DNA from: Methanobacteriota archaeon
GTDB taxonomy: Archaea; Thermoplasmatota; Poseidoniia; Poseidoniales; Poseidoniaceae
Reading direction: 5' to 3'
Length of the DNA stretch: 64,000 bases
NCBI GenBank assembly: GCA_038104845.1
Contig: JAYOBJ010000006.1
Span: 10,994-74,993, forward strand
A program made the position numbers and the translations under genes. Below, piece by piece: positions 8,198 to 53,291 of this stretch (positions are counted from its first letter, which is position 1; the number at the start of each line of letters is the position of its first letter). The notes beneath the pieces are model-generated. The model worked only from the letters and a program-made list of their open reading frames with translations. It was not told the DNA's origin and did not search any database.

Positions 8198-8215
8198 GGT
8201 GGTCCCTGTCCTCGG

Positions 8216-9514: not shown

Positions 9515-9628
9515 GGTGAACTCGCAGGTACCCTCCGCTTTCACGGTTGTCATCGGTCTGCGGCAAAATCCACCCGCATCGGCTACAAAGGGAAGAAGGC
9601 TGAAAACATCCTCTCCCGAGCAAGGGTT

Positions 9629-10414
9629 GTGAAGACGGACGCTGAATTTGATGAAGCGTGGCAACAACTGGCGCCACATTGGTCCATCCAAGCGGCGGAT
9701 GAAGGCATCCCCTCAACGCCGTTGTACAGCGGTTTGCGTCGGTTCCTCTCACCGGCTTTGCGACCCTTGCTTCGATGGCGAATTTCCGGTGCGGGGCGTG
9801 TCCCACGCCACGGGCCCGTGATCCTCGCAGCCAATCACCTCTCCCACGTGGACCCTGTCGCCGTGATCGCCGCAGCCCGTCGGACCACGTATTACTTGGC
9901 GAAAGAGGGGCACTTCGAAAAACGGTTCACGCGGCTGGTCATGAACGCCACGGGCCAAATCGAAACCAAACGAGCCGAGGGCGGCACCGATGCGTTGGCC
10001 AGTGCCGCCACCGTCCTCGAGCAGGGGCAGGCCTTGGGCATCTTCCCCGAAGGCACGCGCTCACGAAGGACGGAACCACCGTTCATGCTGCCGGGGAAAA
10101 CCGGGGTTGCTCGCCTCGCTGCAGCTTACCCTCAAGCCAAAGTGGTGCCCATCGCATTGAACGGCACCCGCAGCATCATGGCGCCCAAAACGCACAAATT
10201 CCCTCGGCTATGGAAACGCTTCGAAGTGAACATCGGCCATCCAGTGAGCTGGTTGGAATGGTTGCAGCACCCGCAAGGCGGCAACATCAACACGCAGCAA
10301 TTGAAGGAACTCGGTGCACAGGACGAACACGAGGTACGCGCAGCATTGGCCCAACTTTACCGCTCGTTCACCGACCAAATGATGGGGTCCTTGCAGGCCC
10401 TTGGCGCACCCTGA
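9629..10414 (+). CDS. PlsC-type 1-acyl-sn-glycerol-3-phosphate acyltransferase-like protein
   Basis: HxxxxD box (AANHLSHVDP) and FPEGTRS box. There is no in-frame ATG upstream of the motifs, so the start must be GTG. GTG 9629 avoids overlap with the divergent gene; GTG 9506 is the track start. Confidence 0.75.
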   Translation: MKTDAEFDEAWQQLAPHWSIQAADEGIPSTPLYSGLRRFLSPALRPLLRWRISGAGRVPRHGPVILAANHLSHVDPVAVIAAARRTTYYLAKEGHFEKRFTRLVMNATGQIETKRAEGGTDALASAATVLEQGQALGIFPEGTRSRRTEPPFMLPGKTGVARLAAAYPQAKVVPIALNGTRSIMAPKTHKFPRLWKRFEVNIGHPVSWLEWLQHPQGGNINTQQLKELGAQDEHEVRAALAQLYRSFTDQMMGSLQALGAP

Positions 10415-42468: not shown

Positions 42469-43671
42469 ATGCACTTGAAAGATCTGAATCAGCAACTGGA
42501 AGCCCATCGTGCCGAACTTACCGCATGGATGGCGGAGAAACGTCGTAATGTGTCCATGCCGATTTACGGCAGCGTGGATGTCCGTGATGCGGGCTGGAAG
42601 GTGGGTGTGGTGGATGCCAACCATTTCCCTGCTGGCTTCAACAACGTCGCCCAAGACCAGCAAGAAGACCTGTCCATCCTCTTGAAGGACCATCTGCAGC
42701 GGACCCATCCGGACGCCACCTGGGTCCACGTGTACCCTGAGAGTCACACACGAAATCCCGCTTACGTCGAAAACATCGCCTCCATCCAACGCATGATCGA
42801 ACGGGCCGGGTACCGCTGCACCGTGGGGTCGCCTGAGTTGGACGAATTCAAGACACTGAACGGGACGAGCGGCCCCCTCAACCTAGACCTCACCCATGTC
42901 GATGAGAACAACCGTCTTCTTGTGGAGGGGGACGAGCCCGATTTGATCCTCCTCAACAACGACCTCACGGACGGCGACATTCCCGGTATCGCATCGCCCA
43001 ACGTCACTCCGCCGCCCCACATGGGTTGGTTTCGCCGAAGGAAATCGCAACATTACGAAGCGCTCCGCCCGTACGTGAACGAAGTGGCCGAGTTGCTGAA
43101 CCTCGACCCTTGGCACCTCATGCCCGAATGGTTTGTTTCCGAGGACAAATGCCTGACTGAAGACGCCTGCAAGCAGCGTCTTGCGGAAGAAATCGACGAC
43201 TTCCTCAAGCGGCTGAAGGCCAAATACGCCGAGCTCGGCATCAACCGCCAACCAAGCGTGGTGATGAAAAACGACAGCGGTACCTACGGCCTTGGCGTCA
43301 TGGTCTTGACATCGGGCGACCAAATCCTCAACCTGTCCAACCGCAAGGCCAACCGCTTGCGTTACGCCAAAGGTGGAGCGACGGTTGAAAATTACCTCAT
43401 CCAGGAAGGCATCCCCACAGCGCTTCAAACCGAAGCAGGCGAAGCACTTGAGCCGGTGGTCTATCTGGTGGATGGAGAAGCTGCTTCCTGGTTTTACCGA
43501 ATCAACCCCAAGAAATCCGACATGGACAACCTCAACTCACCCAGTGCGCGGTTTGAAAATTACGCCGAAGGGGCCAACCCCTACGCCACCGAAGCCCACG
43601 GCTGGCACGCATTGGTCGCCGAACTGAGCATGTTGGCGATGGGCAAGGAAGCCGAGCGATACAGCGCTTGA
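42469..43671 (+). CDS. Glutamate--cysteine ligase, Thiobacillus ferrooxidans-type GshA family (tentative)
   Basis: PIYGSVDVRDAGWKVGVVDANHFPAGFNNV and VVMKNDSGTYGLGV match my memory of this rare GshA family. ~400 aa. The start is 1 nt after the asnB stop. Confidence 0.55.
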   Translation: MHLKDLNQQLEAHRAELTAWMAEKRRNVSMPIYGSVDVRDAGWKVGVVDANHFPAGFNNVAQDQQEDLSILLKDHLQRTHPDATWVHVYPESHTRNPAYVENIASIQRMIERAGYRCTVGSPELDEFKTLNGTSGPLNLDLTHVDENNRLLVEGDEPDLILLNNDLTDGDIPGIASPNVTPPPHMGWFRRRKSQHYEALRPYVNEVAELLNLDPWHLMPEWFVSEDKCLTEDACKQRLAEEIDDFLKRLKAKYAELGINRQPSVVMKNDSGTYGLGVMVLTSGDQILNLSNRKANRLRYAKGGATVENYLIQEGIPTALQTEAGEALEPVVYLVDGEAASWFYRINPKKSDMDNLNSPSARFENYAEGANPYATEAHGWHALVAELSMLAMGKEAERYSA

Positions 43672-43702: not shown

Positions 43703-43822
43703 ATGCTGAGCGTATTCAGCGGCATGGCGCTGGGTGCCGCTGGCCTCGCTGTTTGGGTGAGCCGCCGGGAAGGGCGACGCATGCAAGAGGATGAATACGA
43801 AGACCGCCACGCCCGCTCATGA
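43703..43822 (+). CDS. Possible 39-aa single-TM micro-protein
   Basis: MLSVFSGMALGAAGLAVWVSRREGRRMQEDEYEDRHARS. The stop overlaps the ATG of the next gene. Confidence 0.25.
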   Translation: MLSVFSGMALGAAGLAVWVSRREGRRMQEDEYEDRHARS

Positions 43823-44496
43823 AGGGCAAGGCGTGGTGGTACGTGGCCACCATTGCCGTTGGCCTGTGGGTGTCCGCTACGGGCGCTCATGGCACCTTAC
43901 CCGATCGCTGGGCTGAATGGCCCGTGAACCTCTGGTGTTGGGGACTGTTTTTCACCCTGTACGCGAAAGCAGAACGGAAAGAACGCATCGAAATGATCAC
44001 CGTCCTTGCGTTCGCTACACCCATGGAATTGTTCTTTTCAGAGGTGTGGAAGGTGTACGAGTACCAACGGGGGTTGATGCCGATGTTTGTCCCGGTGGGT
44101 CATTACTTCCTGTTTGATTTGGGTCGGATTTGGGCCCAACGCATCCGAGTTTCGTGGGCGATGCCGCTTTTGCTGCCGTTCGTGCCGGCGGTCGCGTATG
44201 GGGTGTGGACCGGTGGCGACACCTCGGGCGTGTTGCTGCTCGTCTTGGTGGTGCTGTTCACTCGGTTTGGACCGCAACCCCGCCTGTACGCTGCGATGGT
44301 GTGGGCCGCCTTGGCCATGGAAATCGTTGGCACTCAACTCGGGAACTGGACTTGGGCGACCGAGGTGCCGTGGACGCCGTTGACGGCTTGGAACCCACCG
44401 TTGCTGGTGGGTGCGTTCTACTGCTTGGGTGACCTGTTGGTGAACCTCAGCGTTGCTAAGTTTGAAGGGGAACCTCCCAAGGAGGTCACTGCATGA
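43819..44496 (+). CDS. Polytopic membrane protein (hypothetical)
   Basis: ~7 hydrophobic helices. A PMELFF segment faintly recalls lycopene-cyclase-domain PxEE motifs, which is not sufficient for a call. Confidence 0.55.
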   Translation: MKGKAWWYVATIAVGLWVSATGAHGTLPDRWAEWPVNLWCWGLFFTLYAKAERKERIEMITVLAFATPMELFFSEVWKVYEYQRGLMPMFVPVGHYFLFDLGRIWAQRIRVSWAMPLLLPFVPAVAYGVWTGGDTSGVLLLVLVVLFTRFGPQPRLYAAMVWAALAMEIVGTQLGNWTWATEVPWTPLTAWNPPLLVGAFYCLGDLLVNLSVAKFEGEPPKEVTA

Positions 44497-44825
44497 CGGG
44501 AGCCGACGAGTTGCGCCGGCGACGTCAAAACGAAGCCGTTCGCATCCGCACGGCGCTCAATCGGCAACGCGGTGAACAACGGGCCAACACCAAGGGAGGT
44601 GAAGGAACGGTGGCCTTCGTCGAGGAACGAAAGTGCATCGGCTGCGACCAGTGCACCATCGTTTGCGATGACGATGCGATTGAACTCTACCACGTGGCCA
44701 TGAAGAGCCCCCTCATGTCGGTGGAAAGCAACCGAAAGGCGAAGGTCCTTCGTGACCCTTGCACGGGTTGTCGGCTTTGTGTGCTGGCGTGCCCCACCGA
44801 CGCCATCACCATGATCGACCGATGA
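44493..44825 (+). CDS. 2x[4Fe-4S] ferredoxin-domain protein with basic N-terminal extension
   Basis: CIGCDQCTIVC and CTGCRLCVLACP. ATGA overlap with the upstream gene. Confidence 0.8.
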   Translation: MTGADELRRRRQNEAVRIRTALNRQRGEQRANTKGGEGTVAFVEERKCIGCDQCTIVCDDDAIELYHVAMKSPLMSVESNRKAKVLRDPCTGCRLCVLACPTDAITMIDR

Positions 44826-44846
44826 ACGTGAACCGGAGGATGAAGC

Positions 44847-45137
44847 ATGGCCAAGAAAGGAAAGGACCCCACTGCACAACGGTTTGGAGGCGAATTTGGC
44901 CCCTACAGGAAACCGGGCACCGCAGGTGTCAGTTTGTCGACGTTCAAGACCCTCGTCTGGGTGTCCAACCTTGGCGGTTTGTTGCTCGTCGCCCTCGCCC
45001 TCGAGCTGATGTTTGTCCAGCAGAACTTTGCATGGGGCTTGCTCTCGCTCATTCTCGGGGTCGCCGTTGGCTTGTTCCCTTCCAACTACGAAATCGTCGG
45101 AATGGAAGAGGACGACGACGGGACGAACGACCGCTGA
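44847..45137 (+). CDS. Small 2-TM membrane protein (hypothetical)
   Basis: 96 aa, two hydrophobic helices, acidic C-terminus. Confidence 0.45.
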   Translation: MAKKGKDPTAQRFGGEFGPYRKPGTAGVSLSTFKTLVWVSNLGGLLLVALALELMFVQQNFAWGLLSLILGVAVGLFPSNYEIVGMEEDDDGTNDR

Positions 45138-45140
45138 CGG

Positions 45141-45848
45141 TCAAGGTGCTGATGCGTAGACCCGACGCACGAACGGTCGCTCAACGCTCATGTAAAACAC
45201 GTAGATGCTGACATGGAACACCGCCGCCACGGCCCATCCTTCCATGGATGCCGCCTCAAGGGCTGCGCCATGCATCGACACATTGCCGATGCCGTACATG
45301 GGGTTGGAGAACACGGCATACGGCCCTCCCGTGACCAGTTCAGCATCGCTTGCGCAATCATGGAACAAATCTCGGTAGTAGTACACGTCCATCCCGACAA
45401 GGTGGGTGGCCCACGCCTTGACGCCAACGCTGACGATGAACAGCACACCGCCCACGGCCATGGCGACGGAGGTCGCCACGGGGAGGCTGACCGTGCCGGT
45501 GTGCGCACGAAGGAACATGGCAAGGGACCAACCAAGGTTGAAGAACACGACACCGAGGACGGACTCGTAGATGGCCCAGGCTCGCTCATCACCCCACCAC
45601 CGCCGAAGTCGGTGGTGCAGGTTGAACCTATAGAACAGGATGTGGCCGAGGTAGTACACGCTCCATTCGACCGCCACGTACACCAGCGCCAACCGCGGGG
45701 TGGTGATGTACACCCAACCCGCCAAGGCAGAGAGAAGGATGAACAAGGCCGTGATGAGGGTCTGCACCCGAGGGCGATCCAACCTCAGGCCGGACATCCC
45801 AAACACGAGGTAAAGTCCCCTCAACATGGGTGAGCCCGGGCTGGCCAT
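45141..45848 (-). CDS. Isoprenylcysteine carboxyl / phospholipid methyltransferase-family membrane protein
   Basis: VTGGPYAVFSNPMYGIGNV is the GPY...RNPMY-type motif of ICMT/PEMT enzymes. Multi-TM. Confidence 0.7.
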   Translation of the reverse strand: MASPGSPMLRGLYLVFGMSGLRLDRPRVQTLITALFILLSALAGWVYITTPRLALVYVAVEWSVYYLGHILFYRFNLHHRLRRWWGDERAWAIYESVLGVVFFNLGWSLAMFLRAHTGTVSLPVATSVAMAVGGVLFIVSVGVKAWATHLVGMDVYYYRDLFHDCASDAELVTGGPYAVFSNPMYGIGNVSMHGAALEAASMEGWAVAAVFHVSIYVFYMSVERPFVRRVYASAP

Positions 45849-45967
45849 GTTGCTGTTTGGTGAAACCGGCGCTTGAATCAACCGGCCCACGCAGCCCTGA
45901 TGGGCAGACAAAGCGTGGCGCCTATTCCTTCACCGCACCACCGGCCCGAAAGCGGGCCGTTTCAGGT

Positions 45968-48784
45968 TCAAGCTTCAGCGGGTTGACCGGCTTGGACATC
46001 GCCACCAACGAGTGCTTTCTTCTCGTTGACTTGGCGTGCCAGGAAGGACACCACGTCCAGGATCTCGATGTCCTGGTAGGCTTCGTCACCTTCGAATTTC
46101 AGGCACTCAAAGTGCGACACACACTTGGGGCAGGAGGTCAGCATGGTCTCAGCACCGGTGGCCCGCACTTCTTCCATACGCGTCACGCGCAGTGAACGTG
46201 CGTTCTCGTTGCACGACATCATGCTCGACACGCCGCAACACATGGCGTCCTCGCCGTGGTGCTCCATCTCCACGAGTTCAACGCCCTCCACGGAGGTGAT
46301 GAGGTCACGGGGTTCATCGTACACGCCCATTTGCCGACCCAATCGGCACGGGTCGTGGAAGGTCACCGTCGTGTCTTCGGTCTTGAGGTCCATGTCAAAG
46401 CCCTGCTCGAGCAGGAACTCGGTGGTGTGCATGACCTTGACATCCTCCAACTCGTAGTCACGAGCAAAGGTTCGGAAACACTCGGCGCAGGACGACACCA
46501 GCGTGTCAATGCCGGATTCGTTGATCTTCCGCTGGTTGTAGGCCTTGAGTTTCTCGAAGACTTCATCCAGACCCTGCCATTTTTGGTCGTGGCCACAGCA
46601 CTTCAGGAAGTCACGACCGAGGTAGGCCACGTCCGTGCCCATTTCCTCAAACAGCGTGAATGCGGCCGTGGTGGTGTCACCGAGGTTCATGGTGCCTTCG
46701 TTCACATGGGAGAAGACCATCTCCTGATCGAGGTAGTCGACGCAGCCAGGGTAGTAACCCACGTTGGACGTGATTGGGTAGTCCTCCACGGCGATGAAGT
46801 CCTCATCAGCAGCTTCGTCGGCTTCGGCGTTGAGCACAGCTTGGAGCACCGTGTGAGGGATCTCGGCTTGAGGACCGCCCACGATCAAACTGCGACGGAT
46901 GTCAACGTACGAGTCGTAATCCACGAGTTGGGGGCAGGCATTGGTGCACGCTGAACAGGTCAAACATGAATACAGCGGCACACCGTCGTCTTCGTTGTTC
47001 CACGAGTTGTAAATGATGTTGAGTTTGTCACCGCCGTTGAACAAACGGACAGGGCAGGCGTCGTCGCAGAGGTCACAACCGTAGCACTTGTTCATCTCAA
47101 ATTCGTACCCACGAGCCATGTAGCGCAACAGAACAAAGACAAGGGCCCCAAAGGTCACGGAAGGAATGAACATAGCATACGTGAGTTTGGCGTCCAAGGA
47201 TTTTGGATTTTGATGGAAACTGGGGTTCTCGATGACGCCGAAGGCCGTGCCGCCCAGCGCCATCTCATCGGCGTTGGAGAGGTTGACCGTGTGACCTGCG
47301 AGGGAGGCTGGAGCGTCGTCGTTCCAAATCAGCAAAGGTTGGTAGGCAGCGACCGTGAAGGCCGTCTCGGTGCTGATGCTGTTGTTCTCAGCGAGCGCAC
47401 CGCTCACAACCACTTCATAGGTGTAGTCGTAGGTGCCGACCGACAATTCGGTGGTGTCGCCCGCACAGTTCTCGAACGAACTGACCACGTTGCCGTTGGC
47501 GTCGGTCACGGTGAGCGTGGTGGCGACCATGGCTTGGGTGTTGATGCCGTCGATCTTTCGCTCGCTCGAGCGGTATTCACAACCCAGGTCGGTCGTGATG
47601 CCGTCGTTGGTGACTTCCTCTGGGTGGCCCTCTGGGAAGTACGTGGTGTCCTCGGTCACGGTGAACTGTCCGGTTGCAGTCCATCCTTCACCACCAAAGA
47701 ACGTGGTCGTCCCGTGGGCTCCGTTGACGCCGTTGTCAAGGTCTTGATGGCCGTTGGCATCGCTGAAGTCCGTGATGATGTAACGGGCCGGTTGGTAGAT
47801 GTTCCAATCAAGCCATGCGGCTGTGGGAACGACACCCGATTCGGACCAACCGCGATCGTCCGTGAATTCGTTCACATCGTGGACGTGGACATCGCTGGGT
47901 TGGGTGCGCATGGCCTCGAGTTCGCCGTAATCCTTGATGGTCAGCAGACCTTTGGCGTCCCAGAACCCTTTGTCGTAGGTGTCGAAGGTGGCGACGGTCG
48001 CAGCTGAGGAGATGATGAGGGCGCCAACGAGAAGTTGACGGCTCTTGGCGACCGTAAAGCCAGCACCCAGGGCCCTTACCAAGAGGATTCGGCCGATGAA
48101 GTACACCACGATCCACATCAAGACCCCAGTCATGACCCACGGTATGGAGTTGAACACGTCCGCAATCCACGGGTCGCGTGTGCCGCACAACAGGTCGCCG
48201 TGCGAGTCCAACTTACAGAAATCGGACCGGTTTTTCCCGTACAATTCCAAGAAGATGTTGATGGAAAACACCGAAATGAACCAAATGTGGGCGAGGTAAA
48301 CCGCTCCAGCGGCAGCGAACCATGGGTCCTCCACCGGTCGCTTCTCACGCCCGCCGAGGAAGGGTGGAAGGGCAAGGATGCCGACGGGAATGCCGGTCAG
48401 CGCAGCGCCCCACCATGCAGCGTTCCATGGGAACACCGGTTGACCCACAATGTCGCCGATGAATCCGGTGGGCACCACAAACTGGGGAAGGTATTCACCC
48501 CAGCGAAGGTAACCGTACGAAAACAGAACGTACCAATCGGGGAACACGAACCCTGCTTGTGCGTAGGGGTCAGCAGCACCGTGCAACGGTGGTGGAATCA
48601 ACCATGCGTAAAACAGGAGGATGGAGATCATCGATGCGAAGATGATGGTGTCGCGCAGCACTTCGTGCGGCCAAAAACCGTGACCGGTGCGCGTGCGTTT
48701 ACGCTTCTCTTCCGCTTTCTGCAGTTGTTCTTTTTCCTCCATGTACATGGAGGCAACTCGGCCAAAATTGTCAATCAGTCCCAT
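45968..48784 (-). CDS. Fusion protein: cytochrome b C-terminal (subunit IV-like) domain + extra TMs + ~280-aa outer-face insert + TM + HdrD/GlcF-like 2x[4Fe-4S] and 2x CCG domains
   Basis: WPHEVLRD...ADPYAQAGFVFPDWYVLFSYGYLRW is the PEWY loop region. CYGCDLCDDACP and CLTCSACTNACP. Cys-rich CCG repeats (YYPGC...KCCGHD...SSCAEC; HDPC...MCCGVS...SCPKC). A single uninterrupted ORF of 938 codons. Confidence 0.85.
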   Translation of the reverse strand: MGLIDNFGRVASMYMEEKEQLQKAEEKRKRTRTGHGFWPHEVLRDTIIFASMISILLFYAWLIPPPLHGAADPYAQAGFVFPDWYVLFSYGYLRWGEYLPQFVVPTGFIGDIVGQPVFPWNAAWWGAALTGIPVGILALPPFLGGREKRPVEDPWFAAAGAVYLAHIWFISVFSINIFLELYGKNRSDFCKLDSHGDLLCGTRDPWIADVFNSIPWVMTGVLMWIVVYFIGRILLVRALGAGFTVAKSRQLLVGALIISSAATVATFDTYDKGFWDAKGLLTIKDYGELEAMRTQPSDVHVHDVNEFTDDRGWSESGVVPTAAWLDWNIYQPARYIITDFSDANGHQDLDNGVNGAHGTTTFFGGEGWTATGQFTVTEDTTYFPEGHPEEVTNDGITTDLGCEYRSSERKIDGINTQAMVATTLTVTDANGNVVSSFENCAGDTTELSVGTYDYTYEVVVSGALAENNSISTETAFTVAAYQPLLIWNDDAPASLAGHTVNLSNADEMALGGTAFGVIENPSFHQNPKSLDAKLTYAMFIPSVTFGALVFVLLRYMARGYEFEMNKCYGCDLCDDACPVRLFNGGDKLNIIYNSWNNEDDGVPLYSCLTCSACTNACPQLVDYDSYVDIRRSLIVGGPQAEIPHTVLQAVLNAEADEAADEDFIAVEDYPITSNVGYYPGCVDYLDQEMVFSHVNEGTMNLGDTTTAAFTLFEEMGTDVAYLGRDFLKCCGHDQKWQGLDEVFEKLKAYNQRKINESGIDTLVSSCAECFRTFARDYELEDVKVMHTTEFLLEQGFDMDLKTEDTTVTFHDPCRLGRQMGVYDEPRDLITSVEGVELVEMEHHGEDAMCCGVSSMMSCNENARSLRVTRMEEVRATGAETMLTSCPKCVSHFECLKFEGDEAYQDIEILDVVSFLARQVNEKKALVGGDVQAGQPAEA

Positions 48785-48800
48785 GATTCATCCTCCAAGA

Positions 48801-49658
48801 TCAGTGCGGCTCCGCGATGCCTTGCACCCAGACAATAAACAAGTGAATGATGATGAGCGTCGTCACGATGACGGGCAAGATGAACACGTGGATGAAGTAC
48901 ATACGCGTGACCGTCAAGGGCGTCAACTCCGAACCGGAGAAGAGCAAGGTGGCCACGTATTTGCCAACCAACGGACTCGAATTGGCCAAATTGATGCCGA
49001 TGATGGCAGCACCGTAGGCGAGGCTGTCCCACGGCAAGAGGTAGCCCGAATATCCAAAGACGATGGTGAGGGCCATCAGGGCCACACCGATGAGCCAGTT
49101 CAACTCACGTGGGTTGCGGTATGCACCGGTGAAGTACACGCGACACATGTGCAAGAACACGCTGGCCACCATGAAGTGCGTCGTCCAGTGGTGAACCGCC
49201 CGCAGGATGTAGCCAAACGGCAACTGGGTCATGATGTACTCCATGCTGGCGTAGGCTGGCGAGGGGTCACCCTCGCCGCCGGGCACGTAGTAAATCCCCA
49301 GCACGGTCCCGGTGATCACGAGGATGATGAACGACAGGAAGGAGATGCCCCCCAAGCAGTACAGCGGGTACCAGTACCAGATGATGCGAAGTTTGTACTT
49401 CTCTGCGTGGGTCAACGGCATTTGACGGTGCATGTTGTAGTAGGCGCCTTTGGACATGTTCCAGTAGTCCTGCAGACGGAATCGGGTGTCCAACCACGAG
49501 AACACCCAGAGGAACGACCTTTCCGCCACGCCCATCTTGCCGGAGGATTCGACGGCACGAAGGATGTCGCGCCGAGGCATTTCTTCGCTCTCTTTGCGCA
49601 GCGTGAACGCCACCAAGACCACGAGGAAAACGATGAAGAACCAAAGCACCCAGAACAT
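48801..49658 (-). CDS. Cytochrome b, N-terminal di-heme domain (b6-like, 4 helices)
   Basis: RAVHHWTTHFMVASVFLHMCRVYFTGAY, NWLIGVALMALTIVFGYSGYLLPWD, MYFIHVFILPVIVTTLIIIHL (His pairs for hemes bL/bH). ATG at 49658; the track start is TTG. Confidence 0.9.
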   Translation of the reverse strand: MFWVLWFFIVFLVVLVAFTLRKESEEMPRRDILRAVESSGKMGVAERSFLWVFSWLDTRFRLQDYWNMSKGAYYNMHRQMPLTHAEKYKLRIIWYWYPLYCLGGISFLSFIILVITGTVLGIYYVPGGEGDPSPAYASMEYIMTQLPFGYILRAVHHWTTHFMVASVFLHMCRVYFTGAYRNPRELNWLIGVALMALTIVFGYSGYLLPWDSLAYGAAIIGINLANSSPLVGKYVATLLFSGSELTPLTVTRMYFIHVFILPVIVTTLIIIHLFIVWVQGIAEPH

Positions 49659-49676
49659 TGTTGTCAAACGATCACC

Positions 49677-50528
49677 TCAGTCACAGAACGTGTACCAATC
49701 CACGTAGTCGGTCAAGCCCTCAATGGTGTCACCGTTGAGTTGAATGGGGATGATGGGCAGACCCACAGGGGCAGGCCCGCCGGCACGGCGGATACCAGCG
49801 TACTTGAACGTGGCACCGGTTGAGCGGTTTCGGTTGGAGTTCATCTCAAGCACCGTGGGGTCAAAACGGGAGGAATGGCAAATGCAGAACAGCTTGGTAC
49901 CACCGTCGTCACCGCCACCGGGCGTCCAGGAATCCTCAGTGAACGAATTGGACACCAGTTGCCAACCGGGGATGCAGCACAAATGCGTGCAGCGGCCGAA
50001 CACCATGACGAGGTCGTCGCTTGGCATCAGGCGGGGGTCGGCTTCGGCCAAGTCTTCGAAGTGACCGACGTACTTGCCCGTCTCATCGTAGCCTTCGGTG
50101 AACTGGAACCGGGCTTTGCCGTTGCTTTCGGGCGTGCCAGCGTTGCGGCTGTGCTCGACGTACATCACCACGACAGGGACACCGTTCCATACACCCGAAG
50201 CACCGGCCGTCCCGGTGCTCGAGTTGGCGGCTTCAGCAACGAAGTCAGATTTGGTCATGGGTTGCAGGTGCTTGGCGCCGTACCAAGCCTCGTCTTCACG
50301 TCCCTTGGCCCAGAAGTTGACCGCAAGATCACCACCGCCGCCACCGCCGGGTGGAAGGAGAATGGCGGCGAAGCCCAACATGCCCAAGGAGGCCGTGAGC
50401 ACACCGGCGGCGGTGTTGAATCCGTAACGAAGGAACTGCCGTCGGTTGATGGTGGTGTGCATGCCGGCACCTTCGGCATCGTCAAGTCCGGGTGCGGGTT
50501 TGAGTTCGTATTCACGTGCCATGTCCAT
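49677..50528 (-). CDS. Rieske [2Fe-2S] protein with twin-arginine signal
   Basis: INRRQFLRYGFNTAAGVLTA (Tat motif plus TM). CTHLCC ...(29 aa)... CICHSS cluster-binding boxes. The ATG at 50528 shares one nt with the upstream stop (TGATG). Confidence 0.9.
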   Translation of the reverse strand: MDMAREYELKPAPGLDDAEGAGMHTTINRRQFLRYGFNTAAGVLTASLGMLGFAAILLPPGGGGGGDLAVNFWAKGREDEAWYGAKHLQPMTKSDFVAEAANSSTGTAGASGVWNGVPVVVMYVEHSRNAGTPESNGKARFQFTEGYDETGKYVGHFEDLAEADPRLMPSDDLVMVFGRCTHLCCIPGWQLVSNSFTEDSWTPGGGDDGGTKLFCICHSSRFDPTVLEMNSNRNRSTGATFKYAGIRRAGGPAPVGLPIIPIQLNGDTIEGLTDYVDWYTFCD

Positions 50529-50971
50529 CACCACTTGTATTCACGCCAGTCTTTCTGGTGTTCCGGAATGAATTTGTTTTGTGCGTGCTTGACGATGATG
50601 GTGTCGGGCAGGATGAACTTCAGGTAGATGACACCGACCATGATGAGGGTGGTGAACGTCATGGCCAAGTGGAACGAAAGTTGCTGCTGGTCCCATTTTT
50701 TGGCGAGCCCGTACACCATCGAGAAACTCCAGTAGCAGATCCAAAACAGACCCCAAGCGAGGAAGAACATGGCGAGGTACGACCCACCCGAGGGTGCAAG
50801 CGAAGCGGAAACGATGGTGCCCGGTTCAGCGACGTTGAACACACCGTGGTCAATGGCGTCCGACATCTGGTCCTCCGTCAACTCAGCGCCTTCGAGGGCG
50901 GTGCGGGCGTCCTCAACGCTCACCGAGCCGTCGGCCACCTTTCGCAGCAGTTGGGATACGGTGTCGTCCAT
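50528..50971 (-). CDS. Small membrane protein (soluble helical N-domain + 3 TM), occupying the CbsB position of the operon
   Basis: 147 aa. SQLLRKVADGSVSVEDARTALEG, then three hydrophobic helices. TGATG coupling at both ends. Confidence 0.6.
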   Translation of the reverse strand: MDDTVSQLLRKVADGSVSVEDARTALEGAELTEDQMSDAIDHGVFNVAEPGTIVSASLAPSGGSYLAMFFLAWGLFWICYWSFSMVYGLAKKWDQQQLSFHLAMTFTTLIMVGVIYLKFILPDTIIVKHAQNKFIPEHQKDWREYKW

Positions 50972-51816
50972 CACTGGTCACCTCGACGCATGAGTTTGTA
51001 GCGCAGACGAAGCTGATTGCTTCGGCCTTTGTACGAAGTGGAGAAGCCGTACCTCAGCAGCAAGCCTGCGAAGGCAACAACGCCCAGGACGGCACCGAAC
51101 CCGAGCAAACCGAGCCAATGGGCACGGAGTTTCGCACCCATGTGGTGCAGGTCAACACCGTGGGATTCGGGTTCGGGCGCTGACACTTCGCCATCGCCGG
51201 CGAAGAGGGTTCGCGTGCCCATGGCGGCGGACGTTTCGTCGCCCTCGTTGAGACCGAAATTGAACTGATTCCAACGGTCTTCGACACCGGGCACCTGATC
51301 CCCGTTCACCGAGTTGCCAGCGATGTAGAAGTAAGCCACACCTGCGCCGGCGTCAGCAGGAGCCGTCCAGACAAAGTCCCACGCACGGTCAGAGGTGGCG
51401 GAGGAGGCTTCCGTGTGGGTCAAGGCCTGAAGGTCAACGGCACCGTCGATCTCAGGGTTTTGGGCCATGTCGCTGGACAGTTCGCCCAAGGTCACTCGCA
51501 TCGAGAAGCCAGCGGTGTAGGTGCCGGTGGCAGGCGGCCCGCCAATCAGTTGGAGGCGAAGGTCGTAGGTTTGGCCGGCTTCGTAAGCGTAGGGAACGTG
51601 GTCAACCACCACCTGGACCGAGTTGTCGGCGACCTCGTTGTGGCAGAGGCAGCCAGATTTGGCGACGTCGTCGATCTCCACCGTACCGGTGGAACCTTGA
51701 TGGGTGTGGGAACCGGCGATGCCACCGTGGTACGAAGAGGCCAGCGTAGGGAAGAGGAGCAGCAGACCCACCAAGGTCAACAGCCCAATTCGCGATGTTT
51801 GAGTGGTTTTGAGCAT
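50971..51816 (-). CDS. Secreted protein with C-terminal TM anchor; His-rich N-terminus and CLCH motif (candidate redox subunit)
   Basis: Signal peptide IGLLTLVGLLLLFPTLASS, then YHGGIAGSHTHQG and SGCLCHNE. A beta-rich domain. C-terminal WLGLLGFGAVLGVVAFAGLLL followed by a basic tail. Confidence 0.65.
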   Translation of the reverse strand: MLKTTQTSRIGLLTLVGLLLLFPTLASSYHGGIAGSHTHQGSTGTVEIDDVAKSGCLCHNEVADNSVQVVVDHVPYAYEAGQTYDLRLQLIGGPPATGTYTAGFSMRVTLGELSSDMAQNPEIDGAVDLQALTHTEASSATSDRAWDFVWTAPADAGAGVAYFYIAGNSVNGDQVPGVEDRWNQFNFGLNEGDETSAAMGTRTLFAGDGEVSAPEPESHGVDLHHMGAKLRAHWLGLLGFGAVLGVVAFAGLLLRYGFSTSYKGRSNQLRLRYKLMRRGDQ

Positions 51817-51995: not shown

Positions 51996-52295
51996 ATGTC
52001 GAACCACGCATTTGAGAACACCTACGGGCTGTCAAACGAGCAACTTGAACGCTTGGATGAAGCCGAGGACCTGATGGTCAAAGGGGCCCTCGGTCGGGCA
52101 GAAACGACGTTGCTTGACATGCTCAACGCCGACCCCGAATGCATCCCCGTGCTGTCCAACCTCGGCCACCTGTACGGACGATACCTGTCCGAGTTTGAGA
52201 ACGCTGTGAAGTATTACAACAAGGTCTTGGAGCTTGAACCGGACAATGCATGGGCCCGGGATGCGCGCCGACGGTACCTCCGCTATGTGGAATGA
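51996..52295 (+). CDS. Small TPR-repeat protein
   Basis: LSNLGHLYGRYLSEFENAVKYYNKVLELEPDNAWA is a canonical TPR. Confidence 0.7.
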   Translation: MSNHAFENTYGLSNEQLERLDEAEDLMVKGALGRAETTLLDMLNADPECIPVLSNLGHLYGRYLSEFENAVKYYNKVLELEPDNAWARDARRRYLRYVE

Positions 52296-52376: not shown

Positions 52377-53291
52377 ATGGACCCCGCCACCATCCTCATC
52401 GCGGGCGTCGGCGGATTGGGGTGTGCTTGGGCCAAACAAGCCCATGAAAAGTCGGGTGGAGGTGTCCATTTAGCACTGATTGATGCCGACGAACGGAGCT
52501 TTGCTACCGGTGAAGGCATCCACGTGCTGCGACTCGGCCACACCCTTGACCAAGTTGGGTGTGCAGCCTTGCCTCCACTCGCCGAGCAGCGCATGCGTGG
52601 GTTAGCCTCACTTACAGCAAGCGTCCTTGAACCCACCGAATTGGTGGTGTTGTTGACCGCCTTGGGCGGCGGATGCGGCACGGGGGCCGCCCAGGAATTC
52701 GCACGCCAGGCTCGCCAGCGTGGCGCCATCGTGTTGGCCGTTGCGGCCTTGCCCTTCGAAGCCCAGCACACGCGACTGAAGATCGCCGAGGCGGGTTTGG
52801 CCCGATTGGAAGCGATGGCCCACATCACGGTTCGTCTCTCGCTCGATCGCTTGGCCCGACAGGCACGCGATCGAGGCCAGCAGTGGCACATGGGTTCGGA
52901 ATGGATCGAAGATTTGGTTGACGGGCTGGTTCGGACCCTGATGCGCATGGGCCTCATCAACCTCGATCTGATGGACTTGAGGGCCGTTGTTGACCAGGAC
53001 GGCGAAGCAACGATGCTCGTTGGCGTCGGCCGTCCCGACGACCCGCGCGGCATTCTTGAATCGGCGCTGAAGGCCCCCCTCGCCGCCATGGACGTGGGTG
53101 GTGCGACAGGATGCCTGATTCAAGTGGAGGGTGGGCCGGGCATGACCATCGGCCAGGTGGACGCCGTGGCGTCCTTGTTCACCAGCGCCCTCGACGAAGG
53201 AGCGCACGTCATCCTCGGTGCCCGCGTCAGCGATGACCTCGAGGACAGCATCCGCGTGGTGACCTTGCTGTCCGGGATACGACCGGATTAA
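52377..53291 (+). CDS. Divergent, tail-less FtsZ-family protein
   Basis: IAGVGGLGCAWA (G-box), LGGGCGTGAAQEFA (tubulin signature with Thr to Cys), PFEAQHTR, INLDLMDLRAVV (T7 loop NxDxxD), GATGCLIQVEGG...ILGARVSDDL. 304 aa with no C-terminal linker or peptide. Confidence 0.8.
   Translation: MDPATILIAGVGGLGCAWAKQAHEKSGGGVHLALIDADERSFATGEGIHVLRLGHTLDQVGCAALPPLAEQRMRGLASLTASVLEPTELVVLLTALGGGCGTGAAQEFARQARQRGAIVLAVAALPFEAQHTRLKIAEAGLARLEAMAHITVRLSLDRLARQARDRGQQWHMGSEWIEDLVDGLVRTLMRMGLINLDLMDLRAVVDQDGEATMLVGVGRPDDPRGILESALKAPLAAMDVGGATGCLIQVEGGPGMTIGQVDAVASLFTSALDEGAHVILGARVSDDLEDSIRVVTLLSGIRPD

What the first reader, a model, noticed from the sequence alone, without database searches (positions are those of the whole stretch)
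45968..51816. Rieske/cytochrome b operon whose subunit-IV-like gene is fused to a cytoplasmic HdrD-like Fe-S/CCG module: candidate undescribed quinol-linked redox complex
Five co-directional genes are joined by TGATG overlaps or gaps of 18 nt or less:
1. a secreted, C-terminally anchored protein;
2. a 3-TM protein;
3. a Tat-signal Rieske protein;
4. a 4-helix di-heme cytochrome b N-domain;
5. a 938-aa ORF.

The 938-aa ORF begins as the cytochrome b C-terminal/subunit IV domain (FPDWYVLFSYGYLRW, the PEWY loop). It continues through extra helices and a ~280-aa hydrophilic insert, crosses the membrane once more, and ends in two CxxCxxCxxxCP motifs plus two CCG-type cysteine-rich repeats. Those motifs are the signature of HdrD/GlcF/DsrK-like proteins.

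Counting helices from the PEWY loop (outer face) places the insert outside and the Fe-S/CCG module in the cytoplasm, on the heme bH/Qi side. Electrons from quinol oxidation could therefore be delivered across the membrane to a cytoplasmic disulfide or other substrate, instead of or in addition to Q-cycle recycling; the reverse direction is also possible.

HdrD-like modules are known partners of NarI/HdrE-type cytochromes b (HdrDE, Hme, DsrMK). I am not aware of one fused to a bc1/b6f-type cytochrome b. The order of genes 1-4 mirrors the Sulfolobus cbsA-cbsB-soxL-soxN arrangement, as I recall it.
Basis: partly seen in the sequence, partly recalled or inferred. Interest (0 to 1): 0.75.

Follow-up and report, generated by a model that had tools for sequence, protein, structure and literature searches.

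The report
Archaeal complex III with built-in Fe-S wire
Abundant marine archaea (Marine Group II) encode a cytochrome b6f-like respiratory complex in which one membrane subunit is permanently fused to a cytoplasmic iron-sulfur module of the heterodisulfide-reductase type. This arrangement is real, conserved and uncharacterised, and it probably wires cytoplasmic electron carriers directly into complex III.

Summary
Five tightly packed minus-strand genes encode:
- a secreted, anchored beta-sandwich protein;
- a DUF7318-like membrane protein;
- a Tat-signal Rieske protein;
- a cytochrome b6 with all four haem histidines and the CxGG cysteine that binds haem cn;
- a 938-aa fusion of a cytochrome b C-domain/subunit IV with two [4Fe-4S] motifs and two complete CCG motifs.

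The fusion is no artefact. Full-length homologues (917-942 aa) occur in the sampled Marine Group IIa and IIb loci. Shorter versions without the roughly 265-aa external insert occur in other archaea, next to HdrABC/MvhD-like genes or polyferredoxins.

An RnfB-like 2x[4Fe-4S] ferredoxin and a 96-aa membrane protein lie beside the operon here, and in MGIIb they are translationally coupled to the fusion gene.

The closest solved relative of the Fe-S module is mycobacterial EtfD, an electron wire from a cytoplasmic donor to haem b and quinone.

I favour electron entry: ferredoxin to the HdrD module, to haem bH/cn, to quinone.

The literature notes only "MGII-specific complex III" and "hdrD-like and rnfB-like genes near complex III". 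I found no description of the fusion. I rate it a new variant of a known kind.

The parts
50971..51816 (-). g1: secreted protein with an N-terminal signal peptide, a beta-sandwich ectodomain, a C-terminal TM anchor and a nearly invariant basic cytoplasmic tail. It is the candidate p-side subunit standing in the position of cytochrome c1/f.
   Evidence: NCBIfam choice-of-anchor V domain, 6.7e-25. No Pfam hit. No CxxCH motif. Invariant C56xC58H59, M106, H225, M226 and H233, with the tail RYGFSTSYKGRSNQLRLRYKLMRRGDQ nearly invariant. The AF2 model shows a beta-sandwich plus a TM helix at pLDDT 64.6. Foldseek returned only generic Ig-like folds. The same position holds a Reeler-domain protein, a cytochrome c or a multihaem c in other lineages.
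50528..50974 (-). g2: small membrane protein with 2-3 TM, a divergent DUF7318 member.
   Evidence: Pfam DUF7318, E=9.4e-4, below the gathering score. A bona fide DUF7318 gene occupies the same position in L086 and in the P0151 contig. Conserved in all MGII loci.
49677..50534 (-). g3: divergent Rieske [2Fe-2S] protein with a Tat signal (RRQFL at residue 31), a TM anchor, a poly-Gly hinge, box I CTHLCC (182) and box II CICH (217). It probably starts at the ATG at 50528, within a TGATG overlap.
   Evidence: TIGR01416, 3.3e-10, on residues 170-227. PDB Rieske 7yr9_A, 0.041, aligned over both boxes. Motifs confirmed by regex. No Pfam Rieske hit.
48801..49667 (-). g4: cytochrome b6-type subunit comprising helices A-D plus one extra N-terminal TM. 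It carries the four haem-ligand histidines (H159/H173 and H260/H275, with b6-type x14 spacing in helix D) and Cys104 in the YCLGG motif, which is the haem cn attachment cysteine of b6.
   Evidence: Pfam Cytochrome_B, 2.5e-40. PDB cytochrome b6 1vf5_A, 1.6e-42, with C104 aligned to b6 Cys35. The Cys plus four His pattern is conserved in 41 of 45 loci.
48065..48784 (-). g5 residues 1-240: cytochrome b C-terminal domain/subunit IV homologue. It has helices E, F, G and H, the PDWY Qo motif at residues 82-85, and conserved cysteines C190 and C200 in the outer G-H loop.
   Evidence: The family profile A4 hits solved cytochromes b (residues 229-381) at 2.9e-13 and b6f subunit IV at 1.8e-9. Relatives P0148, P0162, P0169 and P0151 pass the Pfam Cytochrom_B_C threshold. 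TM segments are at 46-64, 126-144, 161-179 and 221-239.
47117..48064 (-). g5 residues 241-556: MGII-specific hairpin consisting of TM-I (251-269), an acidic and variable extracellular insert of about 265 aa with a beta-sandwich core (355-487, conserved C402/C440), and TM-J (534-552).
   Evidence: Absent from the short-form fusions. The sequence varies among MGII homologues while the flanking parts are invariant. The insert has 11 K/R against 41 D/E. The AF2 model shows beta-strands at 355-487 with pLDDT 70-92. Foldseek gave only generic beta-sandwich matches.
46886..47116 (-). g5 residues 557-633: HdrC-like ferredoxin domain with two cubane [4Fe-4S] motifs (C567xxC570xxC573xxxC577P and C607xxC610xxC613xxxC617P). 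It begins 14 residues after the last TM, with the conserved GYEFEMNKCYGC segment.
   Evidence: Pfam Fer4_9, Fer4_8 and Fer4_10, 1.6e-7 to 3e-6. The motifs are invariant in 20 homologues. Spacings confirmed.
46100..46759 (-). g5 residues 676-895: two CCG domains (HdrB-like), each with a complete five-Cys set (C681, C729, C730, C766, C769 and C813, C849, C850, C885, C888). This is the ligand pattern of Hdr non-cubane [4Fe-4S] clusters.
   Evidence: Pfam CCG, 4.1e-23, two stretches. The best NCBIfam hit is TfrB at 5.4e-33. PDB sequence search gives EtfD 9ojn_A at 5.5e-24. Foldseek gives EtfD at 6.9e-13, then LutA and HdrB. EtfD's C-T and His583 deviations are not present here.
45943..45958 (-). 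G+C-rich hairpin (GGCCCG-CTTT-CGGGCC) starting 10 nt after the g5 stop codon. It may mark the end of the transcript, or be an RNA-stabilising stem.
   Evidence: Read directly from the sequence. Function not tested.
44493..44825 (+). Fd110: RnfB-like 2x[4Fe-4S] ferredoxin of 110 aa with a basic N-terminal extension. It is the probable cytoplasmic redox partner or subunit of the complex.
   Evidence: Pfam Fer4_21, 2.8e-14. The best NCBIfam hit is rnfB TIGR01944 at 5.2e-14, below cut-off and covering the ferredoxin domain only. It is adjacent to the fusion gene in all MGII loci with enough flank. In MGIIb it overlaps the stop codon of the fusion gene by 4 nt: in L047 the fusion gene is 6360-9179 and the ferredoxin gene 9176-9508.
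44847..45137 (+). orf96: small membrane protein with two hydrophobic segments that always travels with Fd110.
   Evidence: Conserved next to Fd110 in MGIIa and MGIIb. In L047 it lies at 9513-9785, 4 nt after the ferredoxin gene. No family hit.

Best explanation
**What it is.** This is the Poseidoniales (Marine Group II) form of respiratory complex III, a cytochrome b6f-type Rieske/cytochrome b quinol oxidase.
- Quinol is oxidised at a PDWY Qo site.
- One electron goes through the Tat-exported Rieske protein towards the outer face. There the anchored beta-sandwich protein g1 stands where cytochrome c1/f would be.
- The other electron crosses the membrane through the b haems of a b6-like subunit that retains the cysteine for haem cn.

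**What is special.** Subunit IV has a fourth helix and is fused to an HdrD-type module with two cubane [4Fe-4S] and two non-cubane CCG clusters. This module sits in the cytoplasm directly under the n-side haems. In this lineage the fusion runs through an extra external beta-sandwich hairpin.

**How I think it works (inferred).**
- The module acts as an electron wire, like the one in mycobacterial EtfD. It connects haem bH/cn and the Qi pocket to a dedicated RnfB-like ferredoxin encoded with the operon.
- The most likely direction is inward. Reduced ferredoxin, for instance from 2-oxoacid:ferredoxin oxidoreductases of a protein- and lipid-degrading heterotroph, passes electrons to Fd110, then the HdrD module, then haem bH/cn, then quinone at Qi.
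- The quinol formed there is oxidised at Qo. Complex III would thus double as a ferredoxin:quinone entry point.

**Shown versus inferred.**
- Shown: gene content, motifs, homology, conservation and topology logic.
- Inferred: cofactor occupancy, contact between the first [4Fe-4S] cluster and the haems, the partner, and the direction of electron flow.
For: **Architecture and homology:**

**The fusion is real and old.**
- The homology search returned 469 hits. The complete proteins among those listed are 915-942 aa, down to 61% identity, across Poseidoniaceae and Thalassarchaeaceae.
- All 18 Fe-S cysteines are invariant.

**Topology.**
- The positive-inside pattern fits.
- 4-TM short forms join helix H directly to GYEYxLNxCYxC.

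**Haem ligands.** The haem cn cysteine and four histidines are conserved in 41 of 45 loci.

**Ferredoxin partner.**
- Fd110 and orf96 are always adjacent.
- They are translationally coupled to the fusion gene in MGIIb.
- Fd110's best family hit is RnfB.

**Other lineages.** The same fusion is followed by further cytoplasmic electron-transfer proteins.
- HdrC-HdrB-HdrA-MvhD in L001.
- An FAD oxidoreductase, an Fe-S protein and FlpD in L084.
- A polyferredoxin in L003.

In each case the HdrD module looks like an adaptor between the cytochrome and cytoplasmic redox proteins.

**Structural precedent.**
- The closest solved structure is EtfD.
- EtfD was shown by cryo-EM to be a cluster-to-haem-to-menaquinone wire, with 7-9 A steps, working in an aerobe (PMC13083937).

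**Independent suggestion.** Diamond et al. proposed ferredoxin entry at complex III from gene neighbourhood in Angelarchaeales (PMC9038741).
Against: - No direct evidence exists for the direction of flow or for the partner.
- Both CCG sets keep the full catalytic-type Hdr ligand pattern. They lack the shielding changes of EtfD (C-T, His ligand). That fits real thiol/disulfide chemistry at least as well as a passive wire.
- The AF2 monomer model is poor in the membrane part (pLDDT 36-60, pTM 0.40). No multimer could be modelled, so the cluster-to-haem distance is unknown.
- In this genome the ferredoxin gene is on the opposite strand, convergent with the operon.
- Covalent haem cn attachment in archaea is unproven.
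- Whether MGII already has another ferredoxin-oxidising route was not examined.
Confidence: 0.45

Rival explanations
1. The low-potential electron from Qo bifurcation travels bL to bH/cn to [4Fe-4S] to the CCG clusters, and there reduces a cytoplasmic disulfide. The substrate could be a low-molecular-weight disulfide such as bis-gamma-glutamylcystine, or a protein disulfide or trisulfide. This would happen instead of, or alongside, Q-cycle recycling, making the complex a quinol:(outer acceptor + disulfide) oxidoreductase.
For: - Both CCG motifs are complete and invariant, matching the catalytic non-cubane clusters of HdrB/HdrD rather than the modified ones of EtfD.
- The module is 41-44% identical to HdrD-like proteins of Methanoperedens and Methanosarcinales.
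- A glutamate-cysteine ligase gene (GshA, PF08886, 1.3e-97) lies 2.3 kb away. It stays in the neighbourhood in 26 of about 35 MGII loci with enough flank.
Against: - No candidate disulfide carrier gene (DsrC/TusE-like) was seen in the conserved block.
- The closest HdrD-like relatives are not canonical hdrED genes. They sit in hdrD-like/hdrC/hdrB clusters of unknown function.
- Much of this MGII region is syntenic: FtsZ-like, TPR and AsnB genes are conserved too. GshA proximity is therefore weak evidence.
- CCG proteins such as LutA, GlcF, GlpC and EtfD work without disulfide substrates.
- This model gives the conserved ferredoxin no role.
Confidence: 0.25
2. EtfD-like role. The module accepts electrons from electron-transferring flavoprotein, or another flavoprotein dehydrogenase of beta-oxidation or amino-acid catabolism, and passes them to the b haems and quinone.
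For: - EtfD is the best sequence and fold match among solved structures.
- EtfD links ETF to menaquinone in an aerobe.
- MGII are described as degraders of proteins and fatty acids (PMC6336850).
Against: - No etfAB genes were seen next to the operon in any locus.
- The conserved neighbour is a ferredoxin.
- The cluster ligands differ from those of EtfD.
- The ETF and ETF-QO content of MGII genomes was not examined.
Confidence: 0.1
3. Thiol oxidation feeding the quinone pool, that is, a reversed HdrDE-type reaction. A cytoplasmic thiol pair is oxidised at the CCG clusters and the electrons reduce quinone at Qi.
For: - The CCG ligand set is intact.
- Reversed Hdr reactions are proposed for related archaea.
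Against: - An aerobe has no obvious need to respire on thiols.
- No thiol-generating pathway is linked to the operon.
- The ferredoxin is left unexplained.
Confidence: 0.07
4. Assembly or annotation artefact. The 938-aa ORF would really be two genes joined by a frameshift or a chimeric contig.
For: The only point in favour is that fragments of 60-340 aa exist in the protein collections.
Against: - Many independent full-length homologues of 915-942 aa come from many studies and contigs up to 3 Mb.
- The join is conserved in about 40 genome loci.
- Short-form fusions occur in unrelated archaea.
- The fragments are consistent with ORFs truncated at contig ends.
Confidence: 0.01

Closest known systems
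Cytochrome b6f and Firmicute-type bc (split cytochrome b6 + subunit IV) Rieske/cytochrome b complexes
   Same: - A Rieske protein with a Tat signal.
- A four-helix b6 with H-x13-H and H-x14-H spacing and the CxGG haem cn cysteine. The best PDB hits are cyanobacterial and plant b6 at 1.6e-42.
- A separate subunit IV carrying P(E/D)WY.
   Different: - Subunit IV has a fourth helix and a cytoplasmic HdrD module of about 385 aa, plus an external insert in MGII.
- No c-type cytochrome subunit is present: none of the seven proteins has CxxCH.
- The p-side partner is an uncharacterised beta-sandwich protein.
- A DUF7318 subunit and an operonic ferredoxin are present.
Mycobacterial EtfD (Rv0338c/MSMEG homologue, PDB 9ojn) and related ETF:menaquinone oxidoreductases
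   Same: - A single polypeptide joins a membrane haem-b domain to two [4Fe-4S] and two CCG domains.
- It is the best sequence match (5.5e-24) and the best fold match (6.9e-13).
- It works in an aerobe as an electron wire from a cytoplasmic donor to quinone.
   Different: - EtfD's membrane part is a NarI/HdrE-like five-helix haem-b domain, not a bc-type subunit IV.
- EtfD has a linear [3Fe-4S] cluster (C-T instead of CC) and a histidine ligand. The MGII protein keeps CC and CAEC.
- In MGII the haems are on a separate b6 subunit.
HdrDE heterodisulfide reductase and its relatives DsrMK, HmeCD, TmcBC and QmoC
   Same: An HdrD-type catalytic module (two cubane motifs plus two CCG domains) sits on the cytoplasmic face of a membrane b-type cytochrome that exchanges electrons with a quinone or phenazine pool.
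   Different: - In all of these the partner cytochrome is of the NarI/HdrE type (from established knowledge). Here it is a Rieske/cytochrome b6 complex.
- The nearest HdrD-like sequences (41-49% identity) are Methanoperedens proteins in hdrD-like/hdrC/hdrB clusters, not canonical hdrED.
- MGII are aerobic heterotrophs, and I know of no report of CoM or CoB in them (from memory; not checked here).
"Complex III plus hdrD-like plus rnfB-like genes" noted in Ca. Angelarchaeales (Diamond et al. 2022), and the "MGII-specific complex III / RnfB" of Tully 2019
   Same: The same association of a Rieske/cytochrome b cluster with HdrD-like and RnfB-like genes in Thermoplasmatota, and the same suggestion of ferredoxin entry.
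   Different: - Those papers give one or two sentences from gene neighbourhood.
- Neither reports that the HdrD-like protein is itself the subunit IV/cytochrome b C-domain.
- Neither gives topology, cluster ligands or the wider family.
Sulfolobus SoxLN-CbsAB (cbsA-cbsB-soxL-soxN)
   Different: - No detectable homology of g1 or g2 to any named family other than choice-of-anchor V and DUF7318.
- SoxN is a long, unsplit cytochrome b without an HdrD module (from memory).
- Not tested with CbsA/CbsB sequences.

Membership tests
Rieske/cytochrome b (bc1/b6f-type) complex | Rieske [2Fe-2S] protein with CxH and CxxH boxes and disulfide cysteines, exported by Tat | tested here: met
   CTHLCC at residue 182, CICH at 217 and RRQFL at 31. 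TIGR01416 at 3.3e-10. The PDB Rieske alignment spans both boxes. The protein is divergent: there is no Pfam Rieske hit.
Rieske/cytochrome b (bc1/b6f-type) complex | Cytochrome b with four conserved haem-ligand histidines on helices B and D | tested here: met
   H159/H173 and H260/H275 are present. Pfam Cytochrome_B at 2.5e-40. They are conserved in the 43 of 45 related loci whose alignment covers all four positions.
Rieske/cytochrome b (bc1/b6f-type) complex | Cytochrome b C-terminal domain/subunit IV with the P(E/D)WY Qo motif | tested here: met
   PDWY at g5 residues 82-85. Profile against PDB gives cytochrome b at 2.9e-13 and subunit IV at 1.8e-9. Relatives pass the Pfam Cytochrom_B_C threshold. 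The window protein alone does not hit that model.
Rieske/cytochrome b (bc1/b6f-type) complex | High-potential c-type cytochrome subunit (c1 or f) | tested here: not met
   No CxxCH motif in any of the seven proteins. g1 is a beta-sandwich protein of unknown cofactor. Many archaeal complexes also lack c1/f, so this does not exclude membership of the wider family.
b6f subtype (three-haem cytochrome b6) | CxGG cysteine for covalent haem cn, and b6-type H-x14-H spacing in helix D | tested here: met
   C104 in YCLGG aligns with b6 Cys35. The helix D spacing is x14. Actual haem attachment cannot be tested with these tools.
HdrD (HdrB+HdrC fusion) / CCG-domain Fe-S oxidoreductases | Two CxxCxxCxxxCP cubane [4Fe-4S] motifs | tested here: met
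   C567-C577 and C607-C617. Pfam Fer4 dicluster models hit. The motifs are invariant.
HdrD (HdrB+HdrC fusion) / CCG-domain Fe-S oxidoreductases | Two CCG domains, each with the C...CC...CxxC five-Cys set | tested here: met
   Pfam CCG at 4.1e-23 with two stretches. Spacings are 47/35/2 and 35/34/2. The first spacer is longer than the classical 31-39.
HdrDE heterodisulfide reductase proper | Partner HdrE (NarI-type dihaem cytochrome b) and CoM-S-S-CoB as substrate | tested here: not met
   The membrane partner is a b6-type cytochrome b, and no HdrE-like gene is in the operon. The substrate cannot be tested. I therefore do not file this as HdrDE.
EtfD-type ETF:menaquinone oxidoreductase | NarI-like haem-b membrane domain fused to the Fe-S/CCG module; C-T in CCG1 giving a linear [3Fe-4S]; a histidine ligand to the non-cubane cluster | tested here: not met
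   The membrane domain is a cytochrome b C-domain. The protein has CC at 729-730 and CAEC at 766-769 where EtfD has CT and CPHC. It may work like EtfD but is not a member.
Sulfolobus CbsAB-SoxLN | Homology of the first two genes to CbsA (haem-b glycoprotein) and CbsB | not tested
   No CbsA or CbsB sequence or model was available. Pfam, NCBIfam and Foldseek gave no such link.

The most novel reading that the evidence does not exclude
The MGII complex would be a naturally hard-wired ferredoxin:quinone reductase built onto a b6f-type complex. A dedicated ferredoxin docks on an HdrD-type cluster chain fused to subunit IV, and feeds electrons through haem cn/bH into the Qi site. This would be the first case in which the long-debated ferredoxin-to-haem-cn-to-quinone route, proposed for cyclic electron flow in chloroplast and cyanobacterial b6f, is fixed in the polypeptide and can be dissected. 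The related HdrA/MvhD-linked versions would couple flavin-based and quinone-based bifurcation in one assembly.
Probability: 0.35. Interest if true: 0.85.

Novelty: new variant of a known kind. Interest (0 to 1): 0.65.

Why it matters
Marine Group II archaea are among the most abundant microbes in the surface ocean and are uncultured, and their "missing" complex III has been noted for years. This work shows three things:
- their complex III is a b6f-like enzyme with an HdrD-type Fe-S chain fused to subunit IV;
- a ferredoxin is encoded with it;
- the same fusion recurs in other archaea next to HdrABC/MvhD modules.

Together these define a family of Rieske/cytochrome b complexes that communicate directly with cytoplasmic low-potential carriers.

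If the wire feeds the Qi site, it explains how these aerobes reoxidise ferredoxin. It also gives a tractable natural model for the ferredoxin-haem cn pathway of cyclic electron flow.

If the wire instead drains the b haems, it would be a case of Qo-site bifurcation used to make low-potential reductant or thiols.

Either outcome changes how energy budgets of marine archaeal heterotrophs are modelled.

Tried and rejected
- **Pfam on the g5 N-terminus and insert** at E<=10 gave nothing useful. A single-sequence PDB search gave only E=0.48 to subunit IV. The question was resolved with a family profile.
- **The AF2 monomer of g5** was of modest quality (pLDDT 65.5, pTM 0.40). I used it only for secondary structure and domain-level Foldseek hits.
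  - The membrane part is unreliable without cytochrome b.
  - Multimers cannot be run here, so no cluster-to-haem distance could be obtained.
- **AF2 plus Foldseek on g1** gave only generic Ig-like and cohesin-like matches. Its cofactor remains unknown.
- **The idea that the HdrD module is orthologous to canonical HdrD of HdrDE** was dropped. The Methanoperedens hits are 324-aa HdrD-like genes followed by hdrC- and hdrB-like genes.
- **GshA proximity as evidence for a gamma-glutamylcysteine disulfide substrate** is kept only as a lead, because the whole neighbourhood is syntenic in MGII.
- **The PEMT-like gene between g5 and orf96** is not part of the system. It has no counterpart in any related locus.
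- **The profile search with A6** returned only 49 hits because of the word index. The true spread of the short-form fusions is therefore under-sampled.
- **Taxonomy of several short-form contigs** could not be obtained.
- **Literature searches for a description of the fusion** found none. The library lacks most subscription journals, for example Dibrova 2013 and ten Brink 2013 in BBA.

Full report
**1. Observation**

| Gene | Coordinates | Length |
|---|---|---|
| g1 | 50971-51816 | 281 aa |
| g2 | 50528-50974 | 148 aa |
| g3 | 49677-50534 | 285 aa |
| g4 | 48801-49667 | 288 aa |
| g5 | 45968-48784 | 938 aa |

The junctions are as follows:
- g1/g2 and g2/g3 are TGATG-type overlaps.
- g3/g4 is a 9-nt gap.
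- g4/g5 is a 16-nt gap containing GGAGG.

A TTTAAG box lies about 45 nt upstream of the g1 start. A GGCCCG-CTTT-CGGGCC hairpin starts 10 nt after the g5 stop.

The window comes from a Poseidoniaceae (MGIIa) genome. The nearest loci are titled Poseidonia sp. or Ca. Poseidonia alphae, with 86-89% identity for g5 and 97-98% for the cytochrome b.

**2. Identity of the parts**

*g4, cytochrome b6.*
- Pfam Cytochrome_B scores 2.5e-40.
- The best solved relatives are cyanobacterial and plant b6, at 1.6e-42.
- The four haem-ligand histidines are present, with b6-type x14 spacing in helix D.
- Cys104 in YCLGG aligns with b6 Cys35, the attachment site of haem cn.
- This Cys-plus-four-His pattern is kept in 41 of 45 related loci.
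- There is an extra N-terminal TM helix.

*g3, a divergent Rieske protein.*
- It has RRQFL, a TM anchor, a poly-Gly hinge, CTHLCC and CICH.
- TIGR01416 scores 3.3e-10, and a PDB Rieske alignment spans both boxes.
- There is no Pfam Rieske hit.

*g2* is a weak DUF7318 match. Its positional equivalents elsewhere are bona fide DUF7318 genes.

*g1, the exported protein.*
- It has a signal peptide, a beta-sandwich and a C-terminal anchor.
- NCBIfam calls it a choice-of-anchor V domain (6.7e-25).
- Invariant C56xC58H59, M106, H225, M226 and H233, together with an almost invariant cytoplasmic tail, suggest a cofactor site and an interaction on the n-side.
- Fold search was uninformative.
- None of the proteins has a CxxCH motif.

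*g5, the fusion.*
- Residues 1-240 are a cytochrome b C-domain/subunit IV homologue.
  - The protein does not hit Pfam Cytochrom_B_C itself.
  - A profile of the family hits the C-terminal halves of solved cytochromes b at 2.9e-13 and b6f subunit IV at 1.8e-9.
  - Relatives at 30-43% identity pass the Pfam threshold.
  - The Qo motif is PDWY.
- Residues 557-633 carry two CxxCxxCxxxCP motifs.
- Residues 676-895 carry two complete CCG sets.
- All 18 of these cysteines are invariant in 20 homologues.

**3. Not an artefact**

- The homology search gave 469 hits, of which 120 are listed. The complete proteins among them are 915-942 aa, with identities down to 61%. They come from many studies, including contigs of up to 3 Mb.
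- The genome scan recovered the fused gene in about 40 Poseidoniales species loci, with g1-g5 in the same order.
- Shorter fragments in the collections are consistent with truncated ORFs.

**4. Topology**

- Six hydrophobic segments are predicted at 46-64, 126-144, 161-179, 221-239, 251-269 and 534-552. These match the AF2 helices.
- K/R-rich loops fall on the N-terminus, the F-G loop (REKR), the H-I loop and the stretch after TM-J. The 264-aa insert is acidic (11 K/R against 41 D/E) and variable.
- Short-form homologues lack TM-I, the insert and TM-J. They join helix H directly to GYEYxLNxCYxC. Both forms therefore have an even helix count, with the Fe-S module cytoplasmic.
- The first cubane motif starts 14 residues after the last TM.
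- Unfused relatives end in GYExKLNxxYYKVR, which corresponds to the first residues of the ferredoxin domain. This suggests the segment packs on the n-side face of the complex. That is inference.

**5.

- A 110-aa 2x[4Fe-4S] ferredoxin (44493-44825, + strand) and a 96-aa membrane protein (44847-45137, + strand) are adjacent in every MGII locus with enough flank.
- In MGIIb they follow the fusion gene on the same strand with 4-nt overlaps or gaps. In L047 the three genes are at 6360-9179, 9176-9508 and 9513-9785.
- In MGIIa the block is inverted.
- The ferredoxin's best family match is RnfB, over the ferredoxin domain only and below cut-off. This is presumably the "RnfB" reported for MGII by Tully 2019.
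- The PEMT-like gene at 45141-45911 is peculiar to this genome.

**6. The wider family**

| Locus | Source | Gene order |
|---|---|---|
| L001/L004 | uncultured archaeon | multihaem c, small protein, Rieske, cytochrome b, fusion, HdrC-like, HdrB-like, 1010-aa HdrA-like, MvhD/FlpD |
| L084 | JGI metagenome contig | cytochrome b with Big_5 domain, fusion, FAD oxidoreductase, Fe-S protein, FlpD |
| L003 | Logan contig SRR14366766 | 260-aa Rieske-like protein, cytochrome b, fusion, polyferredoxin; a second contig carrying the same fusion also has a Reeler-domain protein and DUF7318 upstream |
| L085 | JGI metagenome contig | cytochrome b, fusion, 180-aa protein |
| L086 | "Halobacteria archaeon" MAG | cytochrome c, DUF7318, Rieske-like, cytochrome b, PetD+Fer4 without CCG |

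- About 45 protein clusters from Thermoplasmata MAGs are PetD+Fer4 proteins of 436-453 aa.
- A Geothermarchaeales genome carries the full fusion (L005).
- The p-side subunit and the cytoplasmic partners vary from lineage to lineage. The cytochrome b, the PetD-like domain and the Fe-S module stay constant, and a DUF7318 gene and a Rieske or Rieske-like gene are identifiable upstream in several of these clusters.

**7. Closest known systems**

- Among solved structures the Fe-S module is closest to M. smegmatis EtfD (9ojn), at 5.5e-24 by sequence and 6.9e-13 by fold. LutA and HdrB follow.
- EtfD is a NarI-like haem-b domain fused to the same four-cluster module. Cryo-EM showed it to be an electron wire with 7-9 A steps from the clusters to haem b and menaquinone, working in an aerobe.
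- EtfD has a C-T substitution, which gives a linear [3Fe-4S], and a histidine ligand. These changes are interpreted as making the clusters non-catalytic and shielded. The MGII protein keeps the full Hdr-type ligand set, with CC twice and CAEC.
- The nearest HdrD-like sequences (41-49% identity) are Methanoperedens and Methanosarcinales proteins in hdrD-like/hdrC/hdrB clusters, not canonical hdrED.

**8. Mechanism**

*Shown:* a b6f-type core with a cytoplasmic four-cluster module covalently attached to subunit IV, and an operonic ferredoxin.

*Inferred:* the clusters lie within electron-transfer distance of haem bH/cn.

I favour electron entry, from ferredoxin to the HdrD module, to haem bH/cn, to quinone at Qi (confidence 0.45). 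My reasons are:
- The ferredoxin is a conserved, translationally coupled partner.
- In the other lineages the module is followed by proteins that sit on the cytoplasmic, low-potential side (HdrA/MvhD, polyferredoxin).
- EtfD sets a precedent.
- Physiological electron flow in these organisms runs from cytoplasmic donors to external acceptors.
- The same idea was reached independently from gene neighbourhood in Angelarchaeales.

The CCG ligand set is catalytic-type, and GshA is a conserved though non-specific neighbour. An ETF-linked role (0.1) and thiol oxidation (0.07) are less likely.

**9. Novelty**

- A phylogenomic survey of cytochrome bc complexes does not mention Fe-S or Hdr fusions.
- A systematic survey of archaeal fusions does not mention cytochrome b or Rieske proteins at all.
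- Tully 2019 notes only that MGII have cytochrome b and Rieske genes but no canonical bc1, plus RnfB.
- Diamond 2022 notes hdrD-like and rnfB-like genes next to complex III.
- I found no description of the subunit IV-HdrD fusion, though the searchable library omits most subscription journals.
- Both modules and the principle of an HdrD-like module on a membrane cytochrome are known. Their union with a Rieske/b6 complex is not. I therefore rate it a new variant of a known kind, with interest 0.65.

Noticed in passing
window 44493-45137 (+); L047 9176-9785: An RnfB-like 110-aa ferredoxin and a 96-aa membrane protein always accompany the operon. In MGIIb they are co-directional with the fusion gene and overlap it. 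In MGIIa, including this window, the block is inverted and preceded by a 225-aa membrane protein (43819-44496) found only in MGIIa.
   Followed up: yes
window 45141-45911 (-): A PEMT-family (phospholipid or isoprenylcysteine methyltransferase-like) membrane protein is inserted between the fusion gene and orf96. It has no counterpart in any of the roughly 40 related loci, so it looks like a recent insertion in this genome.
   Followed up: partly
window 42469-43671 (+): A glutamate-cysteine ligase (GshA, PF08886, 1.3e-97; TIGR02049 just below cut-off) lies 2.3 kb from the fusion gene, and stays nearby in 26 of about 35 MGII loci. This suggests MGII make gamma-glutamylcysteine-type thiols, and it gives a possible, unproven substrate link for the CCG module.
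   Followed up: partly
P0152, P0153, P0157, P0160: Unfused PetD-like relatives end with GYExKLNxxYYKVR, which corresponds to the first residues (GYEFEMNKCYGC) of the ferredoxin domain in the fusions. This is either a relic of a lost Fe-S domain or the docking segment onto which the domain was added. P0160 carries a Laminin_G_3 domain instead.
   Followed up: partly
window 50971-51816 (-), g1: The cytoplasmic tail after the TM anchor (RYGFSTSYKGRSNQLRLRYKLMRRGDQ) is almost invariant across MGII, whereas the ectodomain varies. Invariant CxCH, Met and His residues hint at an unidentified metal or haem site.
   Followed up: partly
L003 898-3174; L084 4426-6924: In other lineages the cytochrome b gene is 758-832 aa long and carries a Big_5 (bacterial Ig-like) domain. 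External beta-sandwich additions therefore recur in this family, on different subunits.
   Followed up: no
L005 and L085 cytochrome b genes: Two fusion-bearing lineages have Tyr or Ser in place of the haem cn cysteine, so the three-haem state is not universal among complexes with the fused Fe-S module.
   Followed up: partly
window 31777-35871 (-): A 1364-aa ORF with thrombospondin type 3 repeats lies in a stretch with the highest G+C in the window (0.633) and strongly negative AT skew. It is probably a large surface protein.
   Followed up: no
window 52377-53291 (+) and 51996-52295 (+): An FtsZ/tubulin-family protein of only 304 aa and a small TPR protein lie immediately upstream of the operon, divergently oriented, and are syntenic with it throughout MGII.
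   Followed up: no
L008 8046-10506: Methanoperedens genomes carry a 324-aa HdrD-like gene with only one cubane motif visible, directly followed by hdrC-like and hdrB-like genes. This cluster contains the closest relatives of the MGII Fe-S module, and its function is unknown.
   Followed up: partly
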